A stretch of 64,000 nt of DNA from a virus. Taxonomy: Duplodnaviria > Caudoviricetes. The position numbers were made by a program, and so were the translations under genes. The stretch is from positions 86,579-150,578 of IMG/VR virus record IMGVR_UViG_3300028833_000075; one strand, 5' to 3'. Shown here piece by piece: positions 13,014 to 46,101 of this stretch; the stretch's first letter is position 1; the number at the start of each line of letters is the position of its first letter. The notes below the pieces were generated by a model. The model had not been told where the DNA came from. It saw nothing but the letters and a program-made list of their open reading frames with translations, and did no database searches.

Positions 13014-16000
13014 ATGAAAAAGACTTGGTCTGAAATCATCACCACAACCCTGAAGGCGGCTCGGATTCCCGCCAACATCATCATCCTGATCCTCACGCTG
13101 GGAAAGAACAACCTTACGGAGATCATTTACTCTGCCAACATGGCGGCTTTGACCACGCTCCCCGGCATTGCTGAGAAGCGGGCCACCGTCATCATCGCCG
13201 CCCTGAAGCAGAAGCTGATGGATGGAAGACTCAGCACCAAAGCTGAGAAACGGGAGAAGGCTCCCGGATACAGTCTGAAGTCATTCGCTAAAGAAGAGCT
13301 TTGGCGGGACGTTCTCGATCTTGCGGTCAGCATCGCAGAATATCGTCCGCAGAAAGACGAAGATCCTGCGATCCGTCAGCGGTATGCCATCATGCTGAAG
13401 GATCTGGAAAACAAGGTCTTCGGCATGAAGTTGACAGTGCGGCAGAAGATGGGCCGCATCGTTCGTCTGAACAAGTCAGCCGTTTCTGAAGTGCTGGGTA
13501 TCCAGTATGACGAAAAGACGCCGACCAATCGGCTCACTGTTGTTGAGCATGGAGTGCAGGAATTGTTCAGCTTCAGCCCGGCACTATTTAGCAACGATCT
13601 TCGAATTGGCAACGAACTCCAAATTGAATTCCAGAAGCGTATTATGCGCAAGCTGGTTACTGAAGGAGTTGCTGTCATCGGTAGAGATGTGAAGCTCTAC
13701 GGTGTTCTGGCAAGCTCCAGCTCCCACCAGAAACAGGAAAAGGTTCTGATGGTGGGGTCTACTGAACTGAAAGAACATAAAGAGTTCTTCTGGTTCGGAA
13801 AGAGTCTGAATGAATTTGCAACTGAGACGAAAATGCTCGGAGCAGAGAGGCTTAAGGCAACAGCGAACTTGATTAGGCCTTGGATGAAACCGTTCACAAC
13901 AAAGAACGGCGAAACCATCAAAATGAAGGACGTTCTCTTCGTAAAAGACGTAGAGAAAGTTTACTTCATCAAGAACGCTCGCACTATTGGTTCGCTTAAT
14001 GGAGCGAACTACAAAGACGGACCCGCCAAGGAATCCAAAGTACTTGGCGATGGAGCAATTATCTCTCTGGTTGCACTTGAATTCCAGGGACAGTGCTCAA
14101 GCACGGGACTTAAAGGATTCCTATGCGATGGTACGAGCGCTATCAAAGCGCTGTGCGAAAAGCACAACCTTACTCTGAAAGAGTTCTACGAGCTGCAGGT
14201 CGAAGGAATCGATGGAAAACTCCATCGTATCGGAGACTATAAAGCTATTTCAGGAGAAGGATGCTGGAAGCTTGACAAAGCATTCAGTAGCTTTAACAAC
14301 TACATGGAATGGCTTGTAGAACTATCTGAGCGGTACAACGGTCTGGATAACCTGTATCTGCTCCGTCAGGCAGAGGAAATCGAAGACGAAGAAAAGGTTC
14401 GCCGTCTAACTAAGTCTTTGATCCAGCAGTGGATGTACATGTCTGCTGCTGAAATCCGGAAGCTGACGAGAAACGCACGGAATGATCTGAAGAAGGCAAA
14501 AACCTTCGCAGGTTCTGTGAAGAAACTTGCAGGTCTTTGGAAAGCAAGCGAAGACAGAACAGCTGTAGAAAATCTCTTCTACGCATCTCCGTGGTTGATT
14601 GTGAATCCGGTCATCCAGCAGTATCTGGAAGAAAGCTGGAACCGGAAGGTAATCGAAGCTGCATCCTGCAAATTTAGAACGCAGGGACAGTACCCGTACA
14701 TCATGCAGGATCCGGTTGCCCTGCTTGAAGTTTGGGTTCTCGGAATGGATCCCAACCGTGATGATCTCGGGATTCTGAAGGGAGATGAGGTCAGCGTTGC
14801 TGACGTACCAGAAGACAAAGAGCTTCTGTGTGTCCGTTTCCCGGCGAACTTCCTCACGGCTATGGTTATGAAGAACCGTGCCTGCCGCGAAGTGTTCGAC
14901 AGCTTGAACGGAGTAATGGTAATATCCATTTACTCTGATATCCTGATTCGTCAGGATGGCGATGTAGATGGCGACGAAATGTGCGTCATCTACGACAAGT
15001 TAGCGATCGCGCTGACCAAGCGGATGAACGAGAAATACAATCCGCCTGTCGTGCTGTTCGCACATGGATCCAAAGCTGAACGGCATGGGTACGCCGACGC
15101 CAAGGAATTCCTGAATGACGTTGCAGATGCTCTTTGGAGAGCAAAGCGGTATGACAGCGTCGGCATCTACGCCAACCTTGCGATGAAATGTTGCTATCTC
15201 GCTTCTGTATACGAAGCGAAGGGCGATACGAAGCGTAGGGATCTGGCGTTAATTTGGATGTCTGCCGCTTCAACAGGAGCGATCCTGGCGATTGACCAAG
15301 TCAAGGGCAATGCCGTTGACGAGGGTTTGATTAACTGGATTGAAATAATCCAAAAGTCCGTCAGAAAAGCGTTCAAAGAGATCGCCGCCGAAATGGGCTT
15401 CTGCAAGGAAGAACAGTCCCGGAGACAGTCTCCGTTCACGCACTTCTATAACGAAGCGGCGAAGCGGCGTCCGATCACCATGGACGTGTGCCTGCCTGCC
15501 AACAAAGATAACTTTGTTGATCAGGTTAGCAACATCATTCTGCATGACGCTGGAACATGGAGCGAGTTCGATGCACAGGGCGTCGTCTGGAATACAGACG
15601 CGGCCTGCGAAGCGCTGCTTGATCACTCCATGCCCATGGAGATGAAAGTCAAGTACGGCGTCGTGTCACAGAAGCTGATCAACACGCTCGGCGAAAACTG
15701 GTTCAAGTTCGCGGCAAAGGCTGATGAGGTCGACGCGACACTGGAGACCAGAAAGAAGCTGAAAGTCGGAGGCCAGCTTGGTATGAAGGAATTCATGCTG
15801 CTGCTGTGGAGAAACGAAAGCTCCATGGCCTACAGCATGGAAGGCCGCACTCTCTGGGAAAAGAAAGAGGAGTATTACGACACATGTCGTGAACTCATCC
15901 AGATGTTCCTCGAATCTGGAGACTGGGTAAACAAGTACGCCAAATCGTTCCCGGAAGGCTACGAGTTCACTATGACTGAGCGTTGGACAATTACCGTGAA

Positions 16001-16346
16001 TGCGGTGATCCGCGACGCTCTTGAACTGAACGGCGGGAACGGTGTCGATAAGAAAGGTTCCTATGCCATGTTCTGTCTGAGAGTGTTCGCCAGTGACATT
16101 CTTGCGAATCTGAAGAAGAACCGGGTGGATAACGCCCGGTTCCTTCTGTCAGATGCGTATATGGATGACATCATAGCAGACTTGGATTTCGAGAAAGCTC
16201 AGGAAACTCTTGAGCTGTTCGAGAATGCTCCGATTCAGGATGTTTGCATCAACGAACCGGAAGAGTTCCAGCCGGTGAATGACGATGATTCGTTCTGGTT
16301 CTCGGACGAAGCTCCCGACGACGAGAGCGTCCCGGAAGAGATCTGA
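13014..16346 (+). CDS. YonO-like single-subunit (two-barrel) DNA-dependent RNA polymerase #1
   Basis: catalytic motif RQDGDVDGDE, upstream CVRFP (R-x-P), GLKG, IDQVKG; N-terminal helix-hairpin-helix LTTLPGIAEKRA; acidic tail. Confidence 0.8.
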   Translation: MKKTWSEIITTTLKAARIPANIIILILTLGKNNLTEIIYSANMAALTTLPGIAEKRATVIIAALKQKLMDGRLSTKAEKREKAPGYSLKSFAKEELWRDVLDLAVSIAEYRPQKDEDPAIRQRYAIMLKDLENKVFGMKLTVRQKMGRIVRLNKSAVSEVLGIQYDEKTPTNRLTVVEHGVQELFSFSPALFSNDLRIGNELQIEFQKRIMRKLVTEGVAVIGRDVKLYGVLASSSSHQKQEKVLMVGSTELKEHKEFFWFGKSLNEFATETKMLGAERLKATANLIRPWMKPFTTKNGETIKMKDVLFVKDVEKVYFIKNARTIGSLNGANYKDGPAKESKVLGDGAIISLVALEFQGQCSSTGLKGFLCDGTSAIKALCEKHNLTLKEFYELQVEGIDGKLHRIGDYKAISGEGCWKLDKAFSSFNNYMEWLVELSERYNGLDNLYLLRQAEEIEDEEKVRRLTKSLIQQWMYMSAAEIRKLTRNARNDLKKAKTFAGSVKKLAGLWKASEDRTAVENLFYASPWLIVNPVIQQYLEESWNRKVIEAASCKFRTQGQYPYIMQDPVALLEVWVLGMDPNRDDLGILKGDEVSVADVPEDKELLCVRFPANFLTAMVMKNRACREVFDSLNGVMVISIYSDILIRQDGDVDGDEMCVIYDKLAIALTKRMNEKYNPPVVLFAHGSKAERHGYADAKEFLNDVADALWRAKRYDSVGIYANLAMKCCYLASVYEAKGDTKRRDLALIWMSAASTGAILAIDQVKGNAVDEGLINWIEIIQKSVRKAFKEIAAEMGFCKEEQSRRQSPFTHFYNEAAKRRPITMDVCLPANKDNFVDQVSNIILHDAGTWSEFDAQGVVWNTDAACEALLDHSMPMEMKVKYGVVSQKLINTLGENWFKFAAKADEVDATLETRKKLKVGGQLGMKEFMLLLWRNESSMAYSMEGRTLWEKKEEYYDTCRELIQMFLESGDWVNKYAKSFPEGYEFTMTERWTITVNAVIRDALELNGGNGVDKKGSYAMFCLRVFASDILANLKKNRVDNARFLLSDAYMDDIIADLDFEKAQETLELFENAPIQDVCINEPEEFQPVNDDDSFWFSDEAPDDESVPEEI

Positions 16347-16849: not shown

Positions 16850-16904
16850 AGAGTGAAAGGAGATAATCAAAGAGAGCTTCGGCTCTCTTTTTTTTATTTT
16901 TACG

Positions 16905-17800
16905 GCAGCCTGAGCCAAGGGGAGTGAAAGCTCCCCAAATTCAGGCAGGGCGACCCATTTTTCAGGCGGGGGGAATTTTTCCGCTTCGCTACTCTGCGCC
17001 TTTTCCGAGGATCTCGACACGCGAAGAGTGGCCACCTTGCGGTGGCCGTGGAAAGTGCATGACTGCAATCTCCATGATTGCAGTTTCTGCGTAGTATCGC
17101 CAGAGATCGCCTTGCGGCGGCAACGGGACACGGTAGGCTGGCAACTACCGCAGGGGCATCACCTGTAAAAGCTTCGGCGCATTGATGCTGGCCCAACGTG
17201 TACCCTGCATGAGTGGTACACCGAACAGGGCATCCTAGCTGGCTGGCAGCGAGCCGCAGTAGACACCTGCGTTACGCAAGCCGTTGGAATAACGTAGAAG
17301 CCCGCATGCGACAGCGTGAACATGCCGCAGGAGTGCGTGAAACCCCGGCGACCTGCTATAGTCGTGAGCCCACCCAGAGGGCTGGGCGGCAGAAACGTTG
17401 CGAAGGCTGTCAGATAGACAGTCGTAAACACCCAAAGACCATGCTGTGCGGTAGAACACCGTAGAACGGACGCGAAAATCCGTGGCGGCGCAGAAGCTAC
17501 CCTGCGTTATCAAAGCAGGCCTTGGCGGTTGGTGAATGATAGGGGAACCGCTCTCAGGACGCACAGTGCCACAAGTGCGTGTACGAGAAGACAGCAGGCA
17601 CAGACCAGATGGTCGACACTCTGGTTCCCTTTGCAGAGGGCACCCGAATGGACTGCAATCTATTTCGGGTGTAATGCGCCGCCGCCGAGTCCCAAGCCTC
17701 GGGGTTTATACGCAGGTACGTCCGGGTACACGTTACTGCCCACCATATTTCACTTCCGCAGCGTTGTGCTGAGAACAGCGTTGCGTTGTTGTGTGCCTTT
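16905..17800 (+). ncRNA. large structured non-coding RNA (about 900 nt), family unassigned
   Basis: GC-rich, no credible ORF; nested long-range helices 17195-17205/17724-17734, 17265-17272/17710-17717, 17340-17347/17700-17707; many local hairpins. Confidence 0.6.
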
Positions 17801-17857
17801 CCGACCGCCTTGCGGCTGGTTTGGAATATGAGAAATAATTTTCAGGGAGGTAGAACC

Positions 17858-18037
17858 ATGTCGAAAGTGAATGAGATGAATTTTGTCCTTCAGGGGCTGT
17901 ATAAAGAGCTGAATGCTCTGAAGAAGGCTCAGCCGACTGAAAGGAACCTGGAAGCTGTTCGCTCGATTGAAAAACGGGCGAAAGAACTGACGATCGCCAT
18001 CCGCCAGTATAAGCTGTCCAGGGGAATGGCTGCTTAA
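17858..18037 (+). CDS. small hypothetical protein
   Basis: GGGAGG RBS, 59 aa. Confidence 0.65.
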   Translation: MSKVNEMNFVLQGLYKELNALKKAQPTERNLEAVRSIEKRAKELTIAIRQYKLSRGMAA

Positions 18038-18343
18038 TTAATTACCTGCCCTGGCTGCTGCTACGCGCCGGTCGGGGCGGAAGATGTTCGACTCAGCCGT
18101 CGTGGTTTCCCTTCTCCACGGCTGGCTGACTTGAGCACCTTCTTCTTCATCCGGGTACAGCCCGGCACCTCCTTTCTTCAACTTGGACAGGGTAGGGGAC
18201 AACCCTGTTCGAGGGCAGGCATGCGTCGGATGACGTGTGCCTGTTTTTTTGTTTCGTCAAATCCGGATTATTTCCGGTGGGGATATTTTCCGAGGGCGGG
18301 GAATTTTTCGCTCACGCTCAATTTGGAATACGGAGGTATTCAT

Positions 18344-18505
18344 ATGCAGAAAATGATTCCGAAATTGAAGATGTCAAAGAAAGCCCGTGACGAGCTGAAC
18401 AAGCAGAAACGAGCCACTTGGGCATTCTCTCCTGTCTCGCGGGTTAAGCAATCTAAGAAGGTTTACAACCGAAAGCGGTCGCGTAGACCTGACGTTGTGG
18501 ATTAA
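18344..18505 (+). CDS. small basic protein
   Basis: GGAGG RBS; MQKMIPKLKMSKKARDELNKQKRATW...SKKVYNRKR. Confidence 0.65.
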   Translation: MQKMIPKLKMSKKARDELNKQKRATWAFSPVSRVKQSKKVYNRKRSRRPDVVD

Positions 18506-18907
18506 CCGCCTTACGGCGGGAACGGGATATGAGGATTCGTTCCTCCGCCAAATTGCTTGAAAGGAGGACTGCAGATTGCATAGCTACACCGCATACACCT
18601 ATTCGGACTACTGGCGTGAATTGCCTGCCCCTGTAGTCCTCCCAAGACCACATAAAACGATTGGCCGCAAGCTTTGCGGTCATGACTCGACGACTCCGCC
18701 GTTGGATTTCCGATCAAATCCAGAATCCCCTGTTTGACTGCAAGTAAGACGTACAGGGAATCAAAAGAGTCCGGTGGAGTAACAGTGCACGGTGAAACAC
18801 CCCGTCTCGACGAGCGGGCAGGACGAGTACAGAGAGATGGAAAGTCCTGTAGAAGTCGCTAGCTGGAAACCGCAAGCCCAGCTGACGGAATTTAAGGAGG
18901 TAATAAC

Positions 18908-19354
18908 ATGGAACGCAAGCAGATCGAAATCTACACTGACGGCGCTTGCTCCGGTAATCCCGGCCCCGGGGGTTACGCCGCCATTCTCGTATTCGGAGAA
19001 CAGAGGAAGGAAATTGCCGGATACGAATCCCGTACAACTAACAACCGTATGGAAATCCGGGCCGCCATCGAAGCAATCCGGAAGCTCAGGATGCCGTGCA
19101 ACATCCTGATCGGCACCGATTCGCAGATCCTCATCAACACTCTTGTTAATTTGGACGAAATGCCTGCAAAAGGCTGGAAGACCAAGACGGGCGCTAAGAG
19201 AGCAAACTGCGACCTGCTTCAGGAACTTTATGCTGTAAAACACGATGGACAACATGAGATCCGGTACCAGTACATCGAAGGTCACAGCGGTAATACCTAC
19301 AATGAACGCTGTGACATGCTAGCCAAAGAGCAGATTCAGCTCCATTCGAGGTAA
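18908..19354 (+). CDS. rnhA: ribonuclease HI
   Basis: IYTDGACSGNPGPGG, TTNNRME, TDSQ, GHSG..NERCDMLA. Confidence 0.95.
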   Translation: MERKQIEIYTDGACSGNPGPGGYAAILVFGEQRKEIAGYESRTTNNRMEIRAAIEAIRKLRMPCNILIGTDSQILINTLVNLDEMPAKGWKTKTGAKRANCDLLQELYAVKHDGQHEIRYQYIEGHSGNTYNERCDMLAKEQIQLHSR

Positions 19355-19468
19355 TCTTATGGAATACGAAGCTTATGAACCAGACCCAAATGACGAATAC
19401 TACGACCAGATGTGTGAAGTTGCGTATGCAAACATGTTTAACCTTTTCTCACTAAAGGAGGAAGATGA

Positions 19469-19777
19469 ATGACTCTTGTAAACGAACTGTCTTGTCTAGG
19501 TTTAATCGTCCTGAGTTTTATTGCAGGACTAAGGTTGGACAACTACTACCGAACGAGGGCTGATGCAGAAAAGAAAGATGCCCTCGAAAGGCAATTTCTC
19601 CGACTGAGAGCTCATGCCGATGCGGATGACCCTGCTCGCCCTTACGGAGTTCCTCAAATGCCTCAGCCTATCCCGGTTTCCGAAACTCCGCAGCCGATTT
19701 CCCAGGAGTTCATGGACGAACTCAAAACGACCGGAAGGGCTAAGACATCCTTTCGTAAATCCGACCTGACTAAGTAA
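19469..19777 (+). CDS. membrane-anchored hypothetical protein
   Basis: N-terminal hydrophobic helix; GGAGG RBS. Confidence 0.65.
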   Translation: MTLVNELSCLGLIVLSFIAGLRLDNYYRTRADAEKKDALERQFLRLRAHADADDPARPYGVPQMPQPIPVSETPQPISQEFMDELKTTGRAKTSFRKSDLTK

Positions 19778-19917
19778 GCCCAGCCTTGCGGCTGGTTTGG
19801 GAAATGGAATCGTACTCTGGTCGATTCTCTCAACATCTTAATCCAGAGCGCTGACGTGGATTAGCGTTGACCACGATTGAACTTGTTAAAATAATAAAAA
19901 TATTGGAGGAAAAAACA

Positions 19918-22394: not shown

Positions 22395-22472
22395 GCACCC
22401 TTAGCTAAGTTGGTCGTAGCGGCGGCCTTATAAGCCGTGTCATTCAGCTGGGTTCGAGTCCCAGAGGGTGTA
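22395..22472 (+). tRNA. tRNA-Ile(TAT)
   Basis: acceptor GCACCCT/AGGGTGT; anticodon arm GCGGC-CTTATAA-GCCGT; T arm CTGGG-TTCGAGT-CCCAG. Confidence 0.8.
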
Positions 22473-22559
22473 CATACCGTCACATCCTTGCGGTATATAA
22501 ATATGGGTGTCGGCAAGCAGGGCCAAACTGCTGCAGGTATGGTAATCAGGCATACCAAA

Positions 22560-22664
22560 ATACGAGTGGCGGAATAGGTGTAGACGCTGCGCGAGGTTGG
22601 TGACATTTTGCCATTAAATTGAGCGGGTAGCCAACTATGTGAGGTGCAAATCCTCACCTCGTAT
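22560..22664 (+). ncRNA. tRNA-like element, copy 1 of 6
   Basis: acceptor ATACGAG/CTCGTAT, D arm TGGCGGAATAGGTGTAGACGC, T arm GTGAG-GTGCAAAT-CCTCAC; no anticodon arm. Confidence 0.65.
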
Positions 22665-22669
22665 CTTAT

Positions 22670-22741
22670 GGGGCATTAACGCAATGGTAGCGTATCTGCT
22701 TTGCAAGCAGAAGGTTAAGGGTTCGAGTCCCTTATGCTCCA
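22670..22741 (+). tRNA. tRNA-Ala(TGC)
   Basis: GGGGCAT/ATGCTCC with G3:U70; TCTGC-TTTGCAA-GCAGA. Confidence 0.9.
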
Positions 22742-23122
22742 CGACAGGAGAGTGTGTTCAGGAAGCACAAAGACTGCAGTGGAACTCTGCAGCTTCTGTT
22801 TATTTTAAACCGAGTGTCTGGGGCAGAACTACATATCCTCAGCCGAAACGCACAAATACTCTTGCCCAGTGTAGGGGTAGGTGATCGGAGCCACGCGGTG
22901 GGCCGACACAAAGAAGAGAGTTGCCGGGTTTACATTCCTGCGGTTTACCGGCGAACCTTTCTGTGGAGTCAAAACGAATATGAAGTAGTAAGACAGTGAA
23001 GCAGAAAGATCGGGTAAGCTCCGATATGTCTTATAAATAGCTCAGCAGGATTTATAAGATGAACAGCACAGCTTGGGTTGATAATTATGGCTGACGTTGC
23101 CGACTACGACAGTGTCGGTCTT

Positions 23123-23196
23123 CGAGGTGTAGCGCAGCTTGGTAGCGCACCTGATTTGGGATCAGGGGGTCGCAGGTTCAAATCCTGTCGCCTCGA
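23123..23196 (+). tRNA. tRNA-Pro(TGG)
   Basis: CGAGGTG/CGCCTCG; CCTGA-TTTGGGA-TCAGG. Confidence 0.92.
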
Positions 23197-23307
23197 CTGT
23201 AACCGCCGATGAGTGTCGTACATCTTGGCCAGTCTTGCAAAAGCAAGTGGGCGGTATATAAATCGAACTCCTTATCTATGTGTAGGTACGACTGCACATA
23301 GCTGTAT

Positions 23308-23390
23308 GCGGATATGACGGAATCGGCAGACGTTCGAGACTTAAAATCTCGTGCTCCATGAGCGTGTGGGTTCAAGTCCCACTATCCGCA
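23308..23390 (+). tRNA. tRNA-Leu(TAA)
   Basis: GCGGATA/TATCCGC; CGAGA-CTTAAAA-TCTCG; long variable arm. Confidence 0.9.
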
Positions 23391-23704
23391 CTTTCCCTTG
23401 CAGAAACTCCATGACTGCTTATTATCAAGGCCGTCATTTATATATAATAATATAATTAAACTTGTTTATCTTTTTGAGCAACAGAATGTATTATTATTAC
23501 ACTTCTTACATGACGTTGTAGTTACTTAATTGGTGTTACTATCACTTCCCATGTTAATGACAATGTTTGTTACTAAAGTTTCTGAATATACAAATGATTG
23601 GATTTCCAAAAGAATATTTAAGTTAAATATGTTACTACTACGGAGATGTTACAAGATTGGTATTGTTACTAAATGTATATTTATAATAATAAGCGTGAAA
23701 GGAT

Positions 23705-42556: not shown

Positions 42557-42631
42557 TGGGGATTCGTATATTGGTTATTACGCCCGGCTTTGACCCGGGA
42601 AAGGGCGGATCGTAACCGTCATCCCCAGCCA
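42557..42631 (+). tRNA. tRNA-Gln(TTG)
   Basis: TGGGGAT/ATCCCCA-G-CCA; CCCGG-CTTTGAC-CCGGG. Confidence 0.85.
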
Positions 42632-45980: not shown

Positions 45981-45983
45981 TAT

Positions 45984-46055
45984 CGGATCGTAGTTTAACG
46001 GAGAAAACGACGGTAATTTACTGGATAATTGACAGTTCGATTCTGTCCGATCCGA
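45984..46055 (+). tRNA. degenerate tRNA (pseudo; anticodon arm non-canonical)
   Basis: CGGATCG/CGATCCG acceptor, D arm and GACAG-TTCGATT-CTGTC T arm; no 7-nt anticodon loop. Confidence 0.5.
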
Positions 46056-46101
46056 ATAAAAACATTTCTAATACAAAACTAAATATAAAGGAGTAAAAGG
46101 T

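What the first reader, a model, noticed from the sequence alone, without database searches (positions are those of the whole stretch)
16905..17800. About 900-nt GC-rich structured non-coding RNA in the early region
Seen: no ORF with an RBS; three perfectly nested long-range helices about 350-520 nt apart (AACGTGTACCC/GGGTACACGTT 11 bp; ACCTGCGT/ACGCAGGT; AAACCCCG/CGGGGTTT), plus many local hairpins (e.g. GGGGAG-tgaaag-CTCCCC, GGCCACC-ttgc-GGTGGCC, GCACCCGAA...TTCGGGTGT). It is bounded by the early hairpin-T motif and the GGTTTGG hairpin. Established: Firmicutes phages carry giant ncRNAs (GOLLD, ROOL); I cannot assign this one to them. Inference: possibly a new large ncRNA or ribozyme.
Basis: partly seen in the sequence, partly recalled or inferred. 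Interest (0 to 1): 0.7.

Follow-up and report, generated by a model that had tools for sequence, protein, structure and literature searches.

The report
Twister-capped large phage non-coding RNA
A sheep-gut phage carries a conserved, transcribed non-coding RNA of about 575 bases that matches no catalogued family and ends in a self-cutting twister ribozyme, but the long-range helices that first drew attention are not conserved in its relatives.

Summary
The stretch has no ORF, is GC-rich, and holds three perfect nested helices, a combination seen in 4 of 300 shuffles. It is not one 900-nt RNA but three parts.

- **Leader (16905-17098):** also found in relatives that lack the RNA.
- **RNA body (about 17099-17672):** six other ruminant-gut phage contigs carry it at 75-88% identity. 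It shows no coding signature, indels the size of whole hairpins, and 7 compensated pairs. It matches no Rfam family; ROOL, GOLLD, OLE and introns were all negative.
- **Twister ribozyme (17632-17701):** a clear type-P5 twister (48 bits; cut-off 37.6), predicted to cut between U17672 and A17673.

The three long-range helices show no compensatory change in relatives, and local hairpins covary in their place.

Two metatranscriptome runs from one sample hold 100%-identical contigs over 17066-17639 and 17099-17616, with a library adapter abutting 17099.

My best reading is a stable, trans-acting phage RNA whose 3' end is made by twister. Its function is unknown.

This scan has reported analogous twister-capped phage RNAs in other genomes; none shared sequence words with this one. 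It is a new RNA family of a loosely known kind.

The parts
16869..16905 (+). Terminator-like hairpin followed by T9-A-T5-ACG. This is the 'punctuation' unit that ends the upstream 137-aa gene.
   Evidence: The same kind of unit was noted by earlier readers elsewhere in the early region.
16905..17098 (+). Leader module, not part of the conserved RNA body. It holds hairpins at 16919-16936, at 17030-17047 (first copy of the CCTTGCGG hairpin motif) and at 17062-17084.
   Evidence: It is homologous to L019 and L017, and in part to L004, which lacks the RNA. It is not homologous in L005, L012 or L008.
17099..17672 (+). Conserved non-coding RNA body of 574 nt, the predicted 5' product of twister cleavage. 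The 5' end is uncertain, between 17066 and 17099.
   Evidence: It is 75-88% identical in L005, L012, L008, L019, L017 and L018. There is no coding signal. The local-helix model is tested. RNA-library contigs cover 17066-17639 and 17099-17616, and an adapter abuts 17099. No Rfam family matches.
17106..17121 (+). 5' hairpin (CGCC-TTGC-GGCG), followed by GGGACACGG. This is the second copy of the hairpin motif and the first conserved element of the RNA.
   Evidence: It covaries G-C to A-U in L019 and L017 (helix 1). The motif has five copies, at 17035, 17110, 17808, 18509 and 19784. A stricter pattern matched four of them, and nowhere else in the 150-kb genome.
17135..17622 (+). Optional 'cargo' of about 488 nt. 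It is absent from relative L006, where the hairpin motif is joined almost directly to the twister.
   Evidence. L006 reads hairpin-GGAACACGGA|TGGTTTCCCTT-twister.
17632..17701 (+). Type-P5 twister ribozyme. P2 is 17632-35 with 17675-78. P1 is 17641-48 with 17664-71. P4 is 17686-89 with 17698-17701. The scissile bond lies between U17672 and A17673.
   Evidence: RF02684 scores 48.3 bits against a gathering score of 37.6. Homologues score 38.9-48.2 bits. P1 has 5 pairs and P4 has 2 pairs with changes on both sides.
17673..17756 (+). Start of the predicted 3' cleavage product.
   Evidence: Part of this spacer (GGGCAAT.TACGCATAGTACG) is also present in L006, which has no RNA body.
17757..17785 (+). 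Terminator-like hairpin with a weak T tail. It is probably the end of the RNA transcription unit.
   Evidence: Two pairs have compensatory changes in the 4-sequence alignment (columns 783/803 and 784/802).
17805..17825 (+). Third copy of the hairpin motif (CCGCC-TTGC-GGCTGG plus TTTGGAATATG), just ahead of the RBS of the next gene.
17858..18037 (+). 59-aa ORF with an RBS. It occupies the slot downstream of the RNA and is not specifically linked to it.
   Evidence: Two unrelated small-protein families occupy this slot among relatives, with or without the RNA. It has no Pfam or PHROG match.

Best explanation
This is a phage gene for a stable non-coding RNA of about 575 nt (roughly 17099-17672, + strand) from an uncatalogued family. 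It is transcribed with the early/replication gene block, from the punctuation unit near 16905 or from a start near 17099. The RNA begins with a conserved hairpin. A type-P5 twister ribozyme built into its tail cuts between U17672 and A17673. The released RNA would therefore end in the twister P1 hairpin with a 2',3'-cyclic phosphate, and the downstream fragment (P4, spacer, terminator-like hairpin, next gene) would carry a 5'-OH. Structured ends on both sides would let the RNA accumulate and act in trans during infection, as a scaffold or decoy, in the manner suspected for the phage-associated large RNAs ROOL and GOLLD. What is shown: the RNA is non-coding, it is conserved, local helices covary, the twister is a family member, and RNA-library contigs cover the body. 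What is inferred: self-cleavage in vivo, the exact ends, the stabilising role of the ends, and action in trans. The molecular partner is unknown.
For: - **Twister:** the Rfam hit is above the curated cut-off in the window and in all four homologues and the twister-only relative L006 that I scanned. The core L1/L4 nucleotides and the U-A-A site are intact (features as defined in PMC5408937). P1 and P4 covary.
- **Conservation:** six further loci carry the body at 75-88% identity, while many relatives lack it.
- **Non-coding:** stops occur in all six frames in all 7 sequences. Substitutions are spread evenly over codon positions. Indels are 1, 2, 8, 15, 17, 23, 27 and 56 nt long, and several of them (for example the 15-nt GCGACA..GUCGC insert in L008) are whole hairpins by inspection.
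- **Structure:** the local-helix model has 103 pairs, 97% of cells paired, and 14 pairs changed on both sides against 7.5+-1.7 in shuffles (0 of 500 reached it) and 1-3 in the slid controls. Seven of those 14 pairs lie in the body.
- **Independence from the next gene:** two unrelated ORF families follow the RNA in different relatives.
- **RNA libraries (weak, contigs only):** runs X3 and X6, from one sheep-gut sample, each hold one 100%-identical contig, at 17066-17639 and 17099-17616, with word depths of 126 and 108. Other contigs of the same phage in the same runs have depths of 2.5-32. An Illumina adapter abuts 17099 in X6. A run from another study (X12) holds fragments of an L008/L019-like variant.
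Against: - **Fold energy:** the body alone folds no better than its shuffles (z = -0.85).
- **Limited covariation:** most body helices are invariant, so they neither support nor contradict the model, and only 7 body pairs covary.
- **No global fold:** the RNAalifold consensus differed between alignments, so no global architecture could be derived.
- **Limits of contigs:** contigs cannot show strand, ends or expression level, and X3 and X6 come from one sample.
- **Untested steps:** cleavage was not tested. The origin of the 5' end is unknown, with no sigma-70 promoter and no known 5' ribozyme found.
- **Narrow family:** only 7 loci are known, all from ruminant-gut data. Block-wise identity could partly reflect recent mosaic exchange, since a neighbouring RNase H gene is 91% identical in L005.
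- **No functional evidence:** nothing bears on a trans function.
Confidence: 0.6

Rival explanations
1. A cis-acting processing cassette. The unit hairpin-twister-hairpin is a 5' leader device that cuts the next gene's mRNA free from upstream transcription. The 488-nt insert would be a passenger, or a regulatory or stabilising domain of that leader, with no trans function. One variant of this idea is that it modulates twister cleavage.
For: L006 has the same hairpin motif, twister and spacer ahead of the same gene slot, without the body. The hairpin motif recurs only ahead of genes in 17030-19800. The segment 17623-17631, just before the twister, can pair with 17543-17551 inside the body, so the body abuts the ribozyme.
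Against: The body has invariant blocks of 28-40 nt across phages whose flanks are about 75-80% identical. It occurs ahead of two unrelated downstream ORFs. A terminator-like hairpin with covariation separates it from the next gene. The RNA-library contigs cover the body, not the leader-gene junction (weak).
Confidence: 0.2
2. One reading: a single RNA of about 900 nt (16905-17800), closed by three nested long-range helices, forming a giant ncRNA or a new ribozyme.
For: The helices are perfect in the window, and such a nested chain is rare in shuffles (4 of 300). The whole tract has z = -4.83. In the window and in L018, complementarity between the tail and the body is marginally above shuffled tails (fraction 0.03-0.04).
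Against: There is no compensatory change, and pairing is at shuffle level (81.5%). Positions that vary break the pairing in 3-6 of 7 sequences. Local hairpins use the same 5' strands, and one of them covaries. Tail-body complementarity is not above shuffles in L005, L012, L008, L019 or L017. Twister cleavage would put the 3' strands on another fragment. The first 195 nt are a separate module.
Confidence: 0.07
3. A selfish or mobile RNA/DNA insertion, or its remnant, that landed between the hairpin motif and the twister. It would persist by hitch-hiking rather than by serving the phage.
For: Its distribution among close relatives is patchy: 7 loci have it and at least 10 do not. The boundaries against L006 are clean. 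Neighbouring regions are mosaic.
Against: There are no intron, retroelement or transposon signatures, no Rfam group I/II match at E<=10, no associated endonuclease or RT gene, and no target duplication seen. The interior is strongly conserved, with compensated stems.
Confidence: 0.08
4. A DNA-level element, such as a replication origin whose GC-rich transcript forms an R-loop primer. The idea comes from the flanking phage RNA polymerase, RNase H and SSB genes.
For: Context only: a two-barrel RNAP gene lies upstream, and RNase H and SSB genes lie downstream.
Against: There is no GC-skew turn, no iterons and no AT-rich tract. A twister-cut 3' end carries a cyclic phosphate, which cannot prime DNA synthesis. 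Compensatory changes in stems point to selection on the RNA.
Confidence: 0.04

Closest known systems
Twister self-cleaving ribozyme, type P5 (Rfam RF02684; Roth et al. 2014, as reviewed in PMC5408937)
   Same: The 70 nt at 17632-17701 are a member. They have P1, P2 and P4, the conserved L1 and L4 nucleotides, T1 (CCC/GGG) and T2 (GC/GC) complementarity, and a U-A scissile site.
   Different: This covers only the last 12% of the RNA. Here the open 'P5' end is joined to a conserved upstream domain of about 530 nt that belongs to no known family.
ROOL RNA (Rumen-Originating, Ornate, Large; Rfam RF03087; PMC5737381; cryo-EM in bioRxiv 10.1101/2024.12.08.627333)
   Same: Both come from the rumen or gut, both are phage-associated, and both have unknown function. 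The sizes almost coincide: 574 nt here, a 581-nt average for ROOL, and 574 positions in the Rfam model.
   Different: The ROOL covariance model gives no match even at E<=10. This RNA is not next to a tRNA island (the nearest tRNA is 4.7 kb away). No complex multistem architecture could be shown here. I know of no report of a ribozyme terminating ROOL.
GOLLD RNA (Weinberg et al. 2009, as cited in PMC5737381 and in bioRxiv 10.1101/2024.12.08.627333)
   Same: It is a large phage or prophage ncRNA of unknown function that is expressed during infection.
   Different: There is no model match, the sizes differ, and there is no adjacent tRNA.
Theta (minimal HDV-like) ribozymes at the 3' ends of phage tRNAs (PMC10879173)
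   Same: A small self-cleaving ribozyme encoded by a gut phage sits directly after a stable RNA, where it can define that RNA's 3' end.
   Different: The ribozyme class is different (twister, which leaves about 40 nt of itself on the released RNA), and the cargo is different (a 0.5-kb RNA of unknown function rather than a tRNA).

Membership tests
Twister ribozyme, type P5 (RF02684) | The covariance-model score reaches Rfam's gathering cut-off of 37.6 bits. | tested here: met
   The window scores 48.3 bits. L005 scores 38.9, L006 43.4, L012 48.2 and L008 44.3.
Twister ribozyme, type P5 (RF02684) | The essential stems P1, P2 and P4 are present and maintained in relatives. | tested here: met
   5 of 11 P1 pairs and 2 of 4 P4 pairs are changed on both sides, and P2 is invariant. 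Cells paired are 96-100%.
Twister ribozyme, type P5 (RF02684) | The L1 and L4 nucleotides are conserved, pseudoknots T1 and T2 are possible, and a U-A scissile step adjoins P1 (definitions from PMC5408937). | tested here: met
   By inspection of the alignment. L1 is GAGGG (17636-40). L4 is GUCCCAAGCC (17689-98). CCC 17691-93 can pair with GGG 17638-40 (T1). GC 17696-97 can pair with a GC after P2 (T2). The U17672-A17673-A17674 step is present. All of these are invariant in 7 sequences, so the pseudoknots have no covariation support.
Twister ribozyme, type P5 (RF02684) | Self-cleavage activity. | not testable with these tools
   This needs an in vitro transcript or raw-read end mapping. Only contigs were available.
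ROOL (RF03087) | A match to the ROOL covariance model (574 positions, gathering score 99.1 bits). | tested here: not met
   There was no match at E<=10 in the tract or in the whole phage genome, where 4 candidates were scored. The control genomes also gave nothing, so the model's sensitivity was not shown in that call.
ROOL / GOLLD | Typical context: a phage or prophage, often beside tRNA genes. | tested here: inconclusive
   The phage context is met. The nearest tRNAs lie at 22395-23391, about 4.7 kb downstream.
GOLLD, OLE, group I and group II introns, other Rfam families | Any covariance-model match. | tested here: not met
   With permissive filters at E<=10, only chance-level hits to unrelated small families appeared.

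The most novel reading that the evidence does not exclude
The 574-nt RNA founds a new class of large phage RNAs that, like ROOL and GOLLD, self-assemble into RNA-only multimers. An invariant 8-nt hairpin loop, G-GUCGAC-A at 17610-17617, carries a 6-nt palindrome that could form a kissing-loop dimer. The 'hairpin - cargo - twister' arrangement, seen here with a 488-nt cargo and in L006 with none, would then be a general phage cassette for producing stable RNAs with precisely defined ends.
Probability: 0.15. Interest if true: 0.8.

Novelty: new variant of a known kind. Interest (0 to 1): 0.6.

Why it matters
Bacterial and phage non-coding RNAs longer than 500 nt are few, and each one studied so far has had an unusual structure or unexplained function. 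ROOL and GOLLD form cages made of RNA alone. This RNA comes from the same habitat as ROOL and is almost the same size, yet it is unrelated by sequence and structure model. It has a known ribozyme built into its tail, which gives two immediate experiments: a cleavage assay and mapping of the RNA ends. Natural variants with and without the cargo sit in the same cassette and provide ready-made controls. Together with the analogous cases this scan reported in other phages, it suggests that ribozyme-made 3' ends may be a common way for phages to produce stable RNAs. That would give twister, whose biological role is largely unknown, a concrete job.

Tried and rejected
- **Recoding:** no long ORF appears under TAG=Q or code 4, and the window has no suppressor tRNA. 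A minus-strand gene is rejected: open frames differ in frame and length among homologues, and substitutions show no 3-nt periodicity.
- **Public phage genomes:** blastn against INPHARED found nothing.
- **Related loci by protein:** The search for related loci gave one truncated locus with the RNAP and none with the 137-aa protein.
- **IMG/VR pattern scans:** they returned only chance matches or nothing.
- **Genome-contig scans:** the first found nothing. The second used too loose a pattern and returned 120 chance matches, none of which nhmmer confirmed.
- **More relatives through the 137-aa protein:** L025-L029 lack the RNA.
- **Global consensus fold:** the RNAalifold structures from the 4- and 7-sequence alignments disagree on every long-range helix. 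Averaged pair probabilities recover only local hairpins, plus pairings that clash with the twister fold. I could not derive the overall architecture.
- **Closing helix at the 5' end:** GCCAGAG (17099-17105) with CUCUGGU (17619-17625) pairs only in the window, L005 and L012 by inspection of the alignment, so it is not conserved.
- **A second ribozyme at the 5' end:** Rfam found none at E<=10.
- **A sigma-70 promoter:** none was found near 17099.
- **Tail-body duplex test:** it was significant only in the window/L018 lineage.
- **Fold energy of the body alone:** it does not differ from shuffles.
- **Circular RNA:** no contig joins 17672 back to 17099 (table 5). This comes from contigs only, so it is not evidence of absence.
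- **Gaps in RNA-library cover:** the runs left 17640-17721 and most of the leader uncovered.
- **Contig depths:** they are reported only as a weak hint, because contigs cannot rank expression.

Full report
**Setting.** The window is bases 86579-150578 of a complete 150,578-bp IMG/VR phage genome with direct terminal repeats. Sequencing runs that hold the stretch come from sheep, goat and other animal gut metagenomes. The tract lies on the + strand among co-oriented early or replication genes. Upstream are a 1110-aa two-barrel (YonO/QDE-1-like) RNA polymerase (weak PF05183 match, phrog_8308) and a 137-aa protein of unknown function. Downstream are a 59-aa ORF, RNase H and SSB.

The tract has no plausible ORF under the bacterial code or two recodings, and the window has no suppressor tRNA. 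GC rises to 0.58-0.61 from 0.42-0.50. The three long-range helices are exact: A at 17195-17205/17724-17734, B at 17265-17272/17710-17717 and C at 17340-17347/17700-17707. A nested triple of this kind occurred in only 4 of 300 dinucleotide shuffles. The whole tract folds with z = -4.83 on the + strand.

**A known ribozyme sits inside it.** Rfam finds a type-P5 twister at 17632-17701, scoring 48.3 bits against a cut-off of 37.6. Using the feature list in the twister review (PMC5408937), the site has:
- P2 at 17632-35/17675-78;
- P1 at 17641-48/17664-71;
- P4 at 17686-89/17698-17701;
- the conserved L1 (GAGGG) and L4 (GUCCCAAGCC) nucleotides, with T1 and T2 complementarity;
- a U-A-A step that places the scissile bond between U17672 and A17673.

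Nothing else in the tract matches any of the 4227 Rfam families, even at E<=10. A dedicated ROOL search of the whole phage genome was also negative. The rest of the genome has no Rfam match at gathering level.

**Relatives.** The 137-aa neighbour has 20 homologue clusters, and I fetched their contigs. A pattern scan of JGI metagenomes added three more loci. Seven loci in all carry the RNA: the window, L005, L012, L008, L019, L017 and L018 (5'-truncated). They are 75-88% identical over the body. At least ten related loci lack it: L003, L004, L009-L011 and L025-L029. L006 has the 5' hairpin motif joined almost directly to a twister (43 bits), with the same spacer downstream. So about 488 nt (17135-17622) behave as an optional cargo within a hairpin-twister cassette.

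Homology to L005 and L012 begins at about 17097. The ORF downstream belongs to two unrelated small-protein families in different relatives, so the RNA is not tied to it.

**It is non-coding and under RNA-level constraint.** All seven sequences have stops in all six frames. Substitutions are spread evenly over the three codon positions. Indels are 1, 2, 8, 15, 17, 23, 27 and 56 nt long, and the alignments show several of them as whole hairpins gained, lost or replaced at fixed sites.

A model of 18 local helices (103 pairs) is 97% paired. It has 14 pairs changed on both sides, against 7.5+-1.7 in column shuffles (0 of 500 reached it) and 1-3 in the slid controls. Seven of these pairs are in twister P1 and P4, and seven are in four helices of the body. 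Most body helices are invariant, which says nothing either way. The family is small and closely related, so this is modest support, not proof of an ornate fold.

Two results cut the other way. The body alone folds no better than its shuffles (z = -0.85). I also could not obtain a stable global consensus structure.

**The long-range helices fail the comparative test.** On the 7-sequence alignment that includes the 3' flank, they show no compensatory change and are 81.5% paired, which equals the shuffle level. Wherever a column varies, pairing breaks in 3-6 of 7 sequences.
- The 5' strand of helix A forms a local hairpin (17198-17204/17215-17221) that changes T-A to C-G in L008, L019 and L017, while the distal 'partner' stays unchanged.
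- The 5' strand of helix B lies in the local hairpin CGCAG/CUGCG.
- The 3' strand of helix C overlaps twister P4 and differs in four relatives.
- Part of the 3' segment is present in L006, which has no body to pair with.
- Tail-body complementarity exceeds shuffled tails only in the window and L018.

The helices may form in this phage's uncleaved precursor, but they are not a conserved feature of the RNA.

**Transcription.** Only assembled contigs of public runs could be laid, so strand, ends and expression level cannot be read from them. What they do show is this:
- Two metatranscriptome runs from one sheep-gut sample each hold a single 100%-identical contig over the body, at 17066-17639 and 17099-17616.
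- In one of them an Illumina adapter directly abuts 17099, which marks a fragment end at the point where homology to L005 and L012 starts.
- These contigs have word depths of 126 and 108, while other contigs of the same phage in the same runs have 2.5-32. I treat this only as a hint of accumulation.
- A run from a different study holds fragments of an L008/L019-like variant.

**Interpretation.** The best-supported reading is a phage gene for a stable RNA of about 575 nt. Its 3' end is made by an embedded twister. It is followed by a covarying terminator-like hairpin (17757-17785) and then by the next gene's hairpin motif. Cleavage would leave the P1 hairpin and a cyclic phosphate on the RNA and a 5'-OH on the downstream fragment. 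Action in trans is inferred from four points: the conserved interior, independence from the downstream ORF, its own terminator, and analogy with ROOL and GOLLD (PMC5737381; bioRxiv 10.1101/2024.12.08.627333). The use of a small ribozyme to define the 3' end of a stable phage RNA has a precedent in theta ribozymes behind phage tRNAs (PMC10879173). They are weighed in the Rival explanations section.

**Novelty.** The twister is known. The body is an uncatalogued family with a narrow known distribution: seven loci, all from ruminant-gut data. This scan has reported analogous twister- or ribozyme-bounded large phage RNAs in other genomes. A shared-word look-up with this sequence matched only windows of this genome, so none of those reports shares detectable sequence with it. 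This is a further, independent example of that arrangement.

Noticed in passing
window 17030-17047, 17106-17121, 17805-17819, about 18504-18520, about 19779-19797 (+): A hairpin motif (NCC-TTGC/TTAC-GGN stem-loop, then 3-4 nt, then GGGAYATG or TTGGAATATG) has five copies. All lie on the + strand within 2.8 kb, ahead of the RNA, the 59-aa ORF, a unit at 18509 and SSB. A stricter pattern matched four of them, and nowhere else in the 150-kb genome. It may be a promoter or an RNA-processing signal of one gene class.
   Followed up: partly
L006:5640-5890: A related phage has the same hairpin motif joined almost directly to a type-P5 twister (43 bits), with the same downstream spacer and no large RNA. 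It is a natural 'empty cassette' control.
   Followed up: partly
window 18038-18907: A second, largely ORF-poor stretch of about 870 nt lies between the 59-aa ORF and RNase H. Parts of it are 70-83% identical in many relatives. It has a strong terminator-like hairpin at 18211-18248, and RNA-library contigs cover 18434-18790. It could hold small genes or another RNA.
   Followed up: no
L005:5046-5140 and L012:5046-5137: The non-coding leader ahead of the RNA in these relatives contains a partial duplicate of the RNA's first 70 nt or so (the hairpin motif and what follows).
   Followed up: no
window 13014-16346 and relatives (L003, L004, L009-L011, L026): The upstream two-barrel RNA polymerase gene is 1110-1149 aa in some relatives but is called as 812-907 aa in others, sometimes with extra small ORFs after it. 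The gene's C-terminal part seems variable or split.
   Followed up: no
window 45983-46056 and 42557-42631: ARAGORN calls a tRNA-Asn with the unusual anticodon ATT and a tRNA-Gln(TTG). Rfam's tRNA model does not report either at gathering level, so they may be false positives or aberrant tRNAs.
   Followed up: no
genome bases 1-86700 (L020-L024) and the window start: Earlier first-reader notes describe two group I introns in the tail tube gene. An Rfam gathering-level scan of the whole genome reported no group I intron, nor any other family outside the window's tRNAs and the twister.
   Followed up: partly
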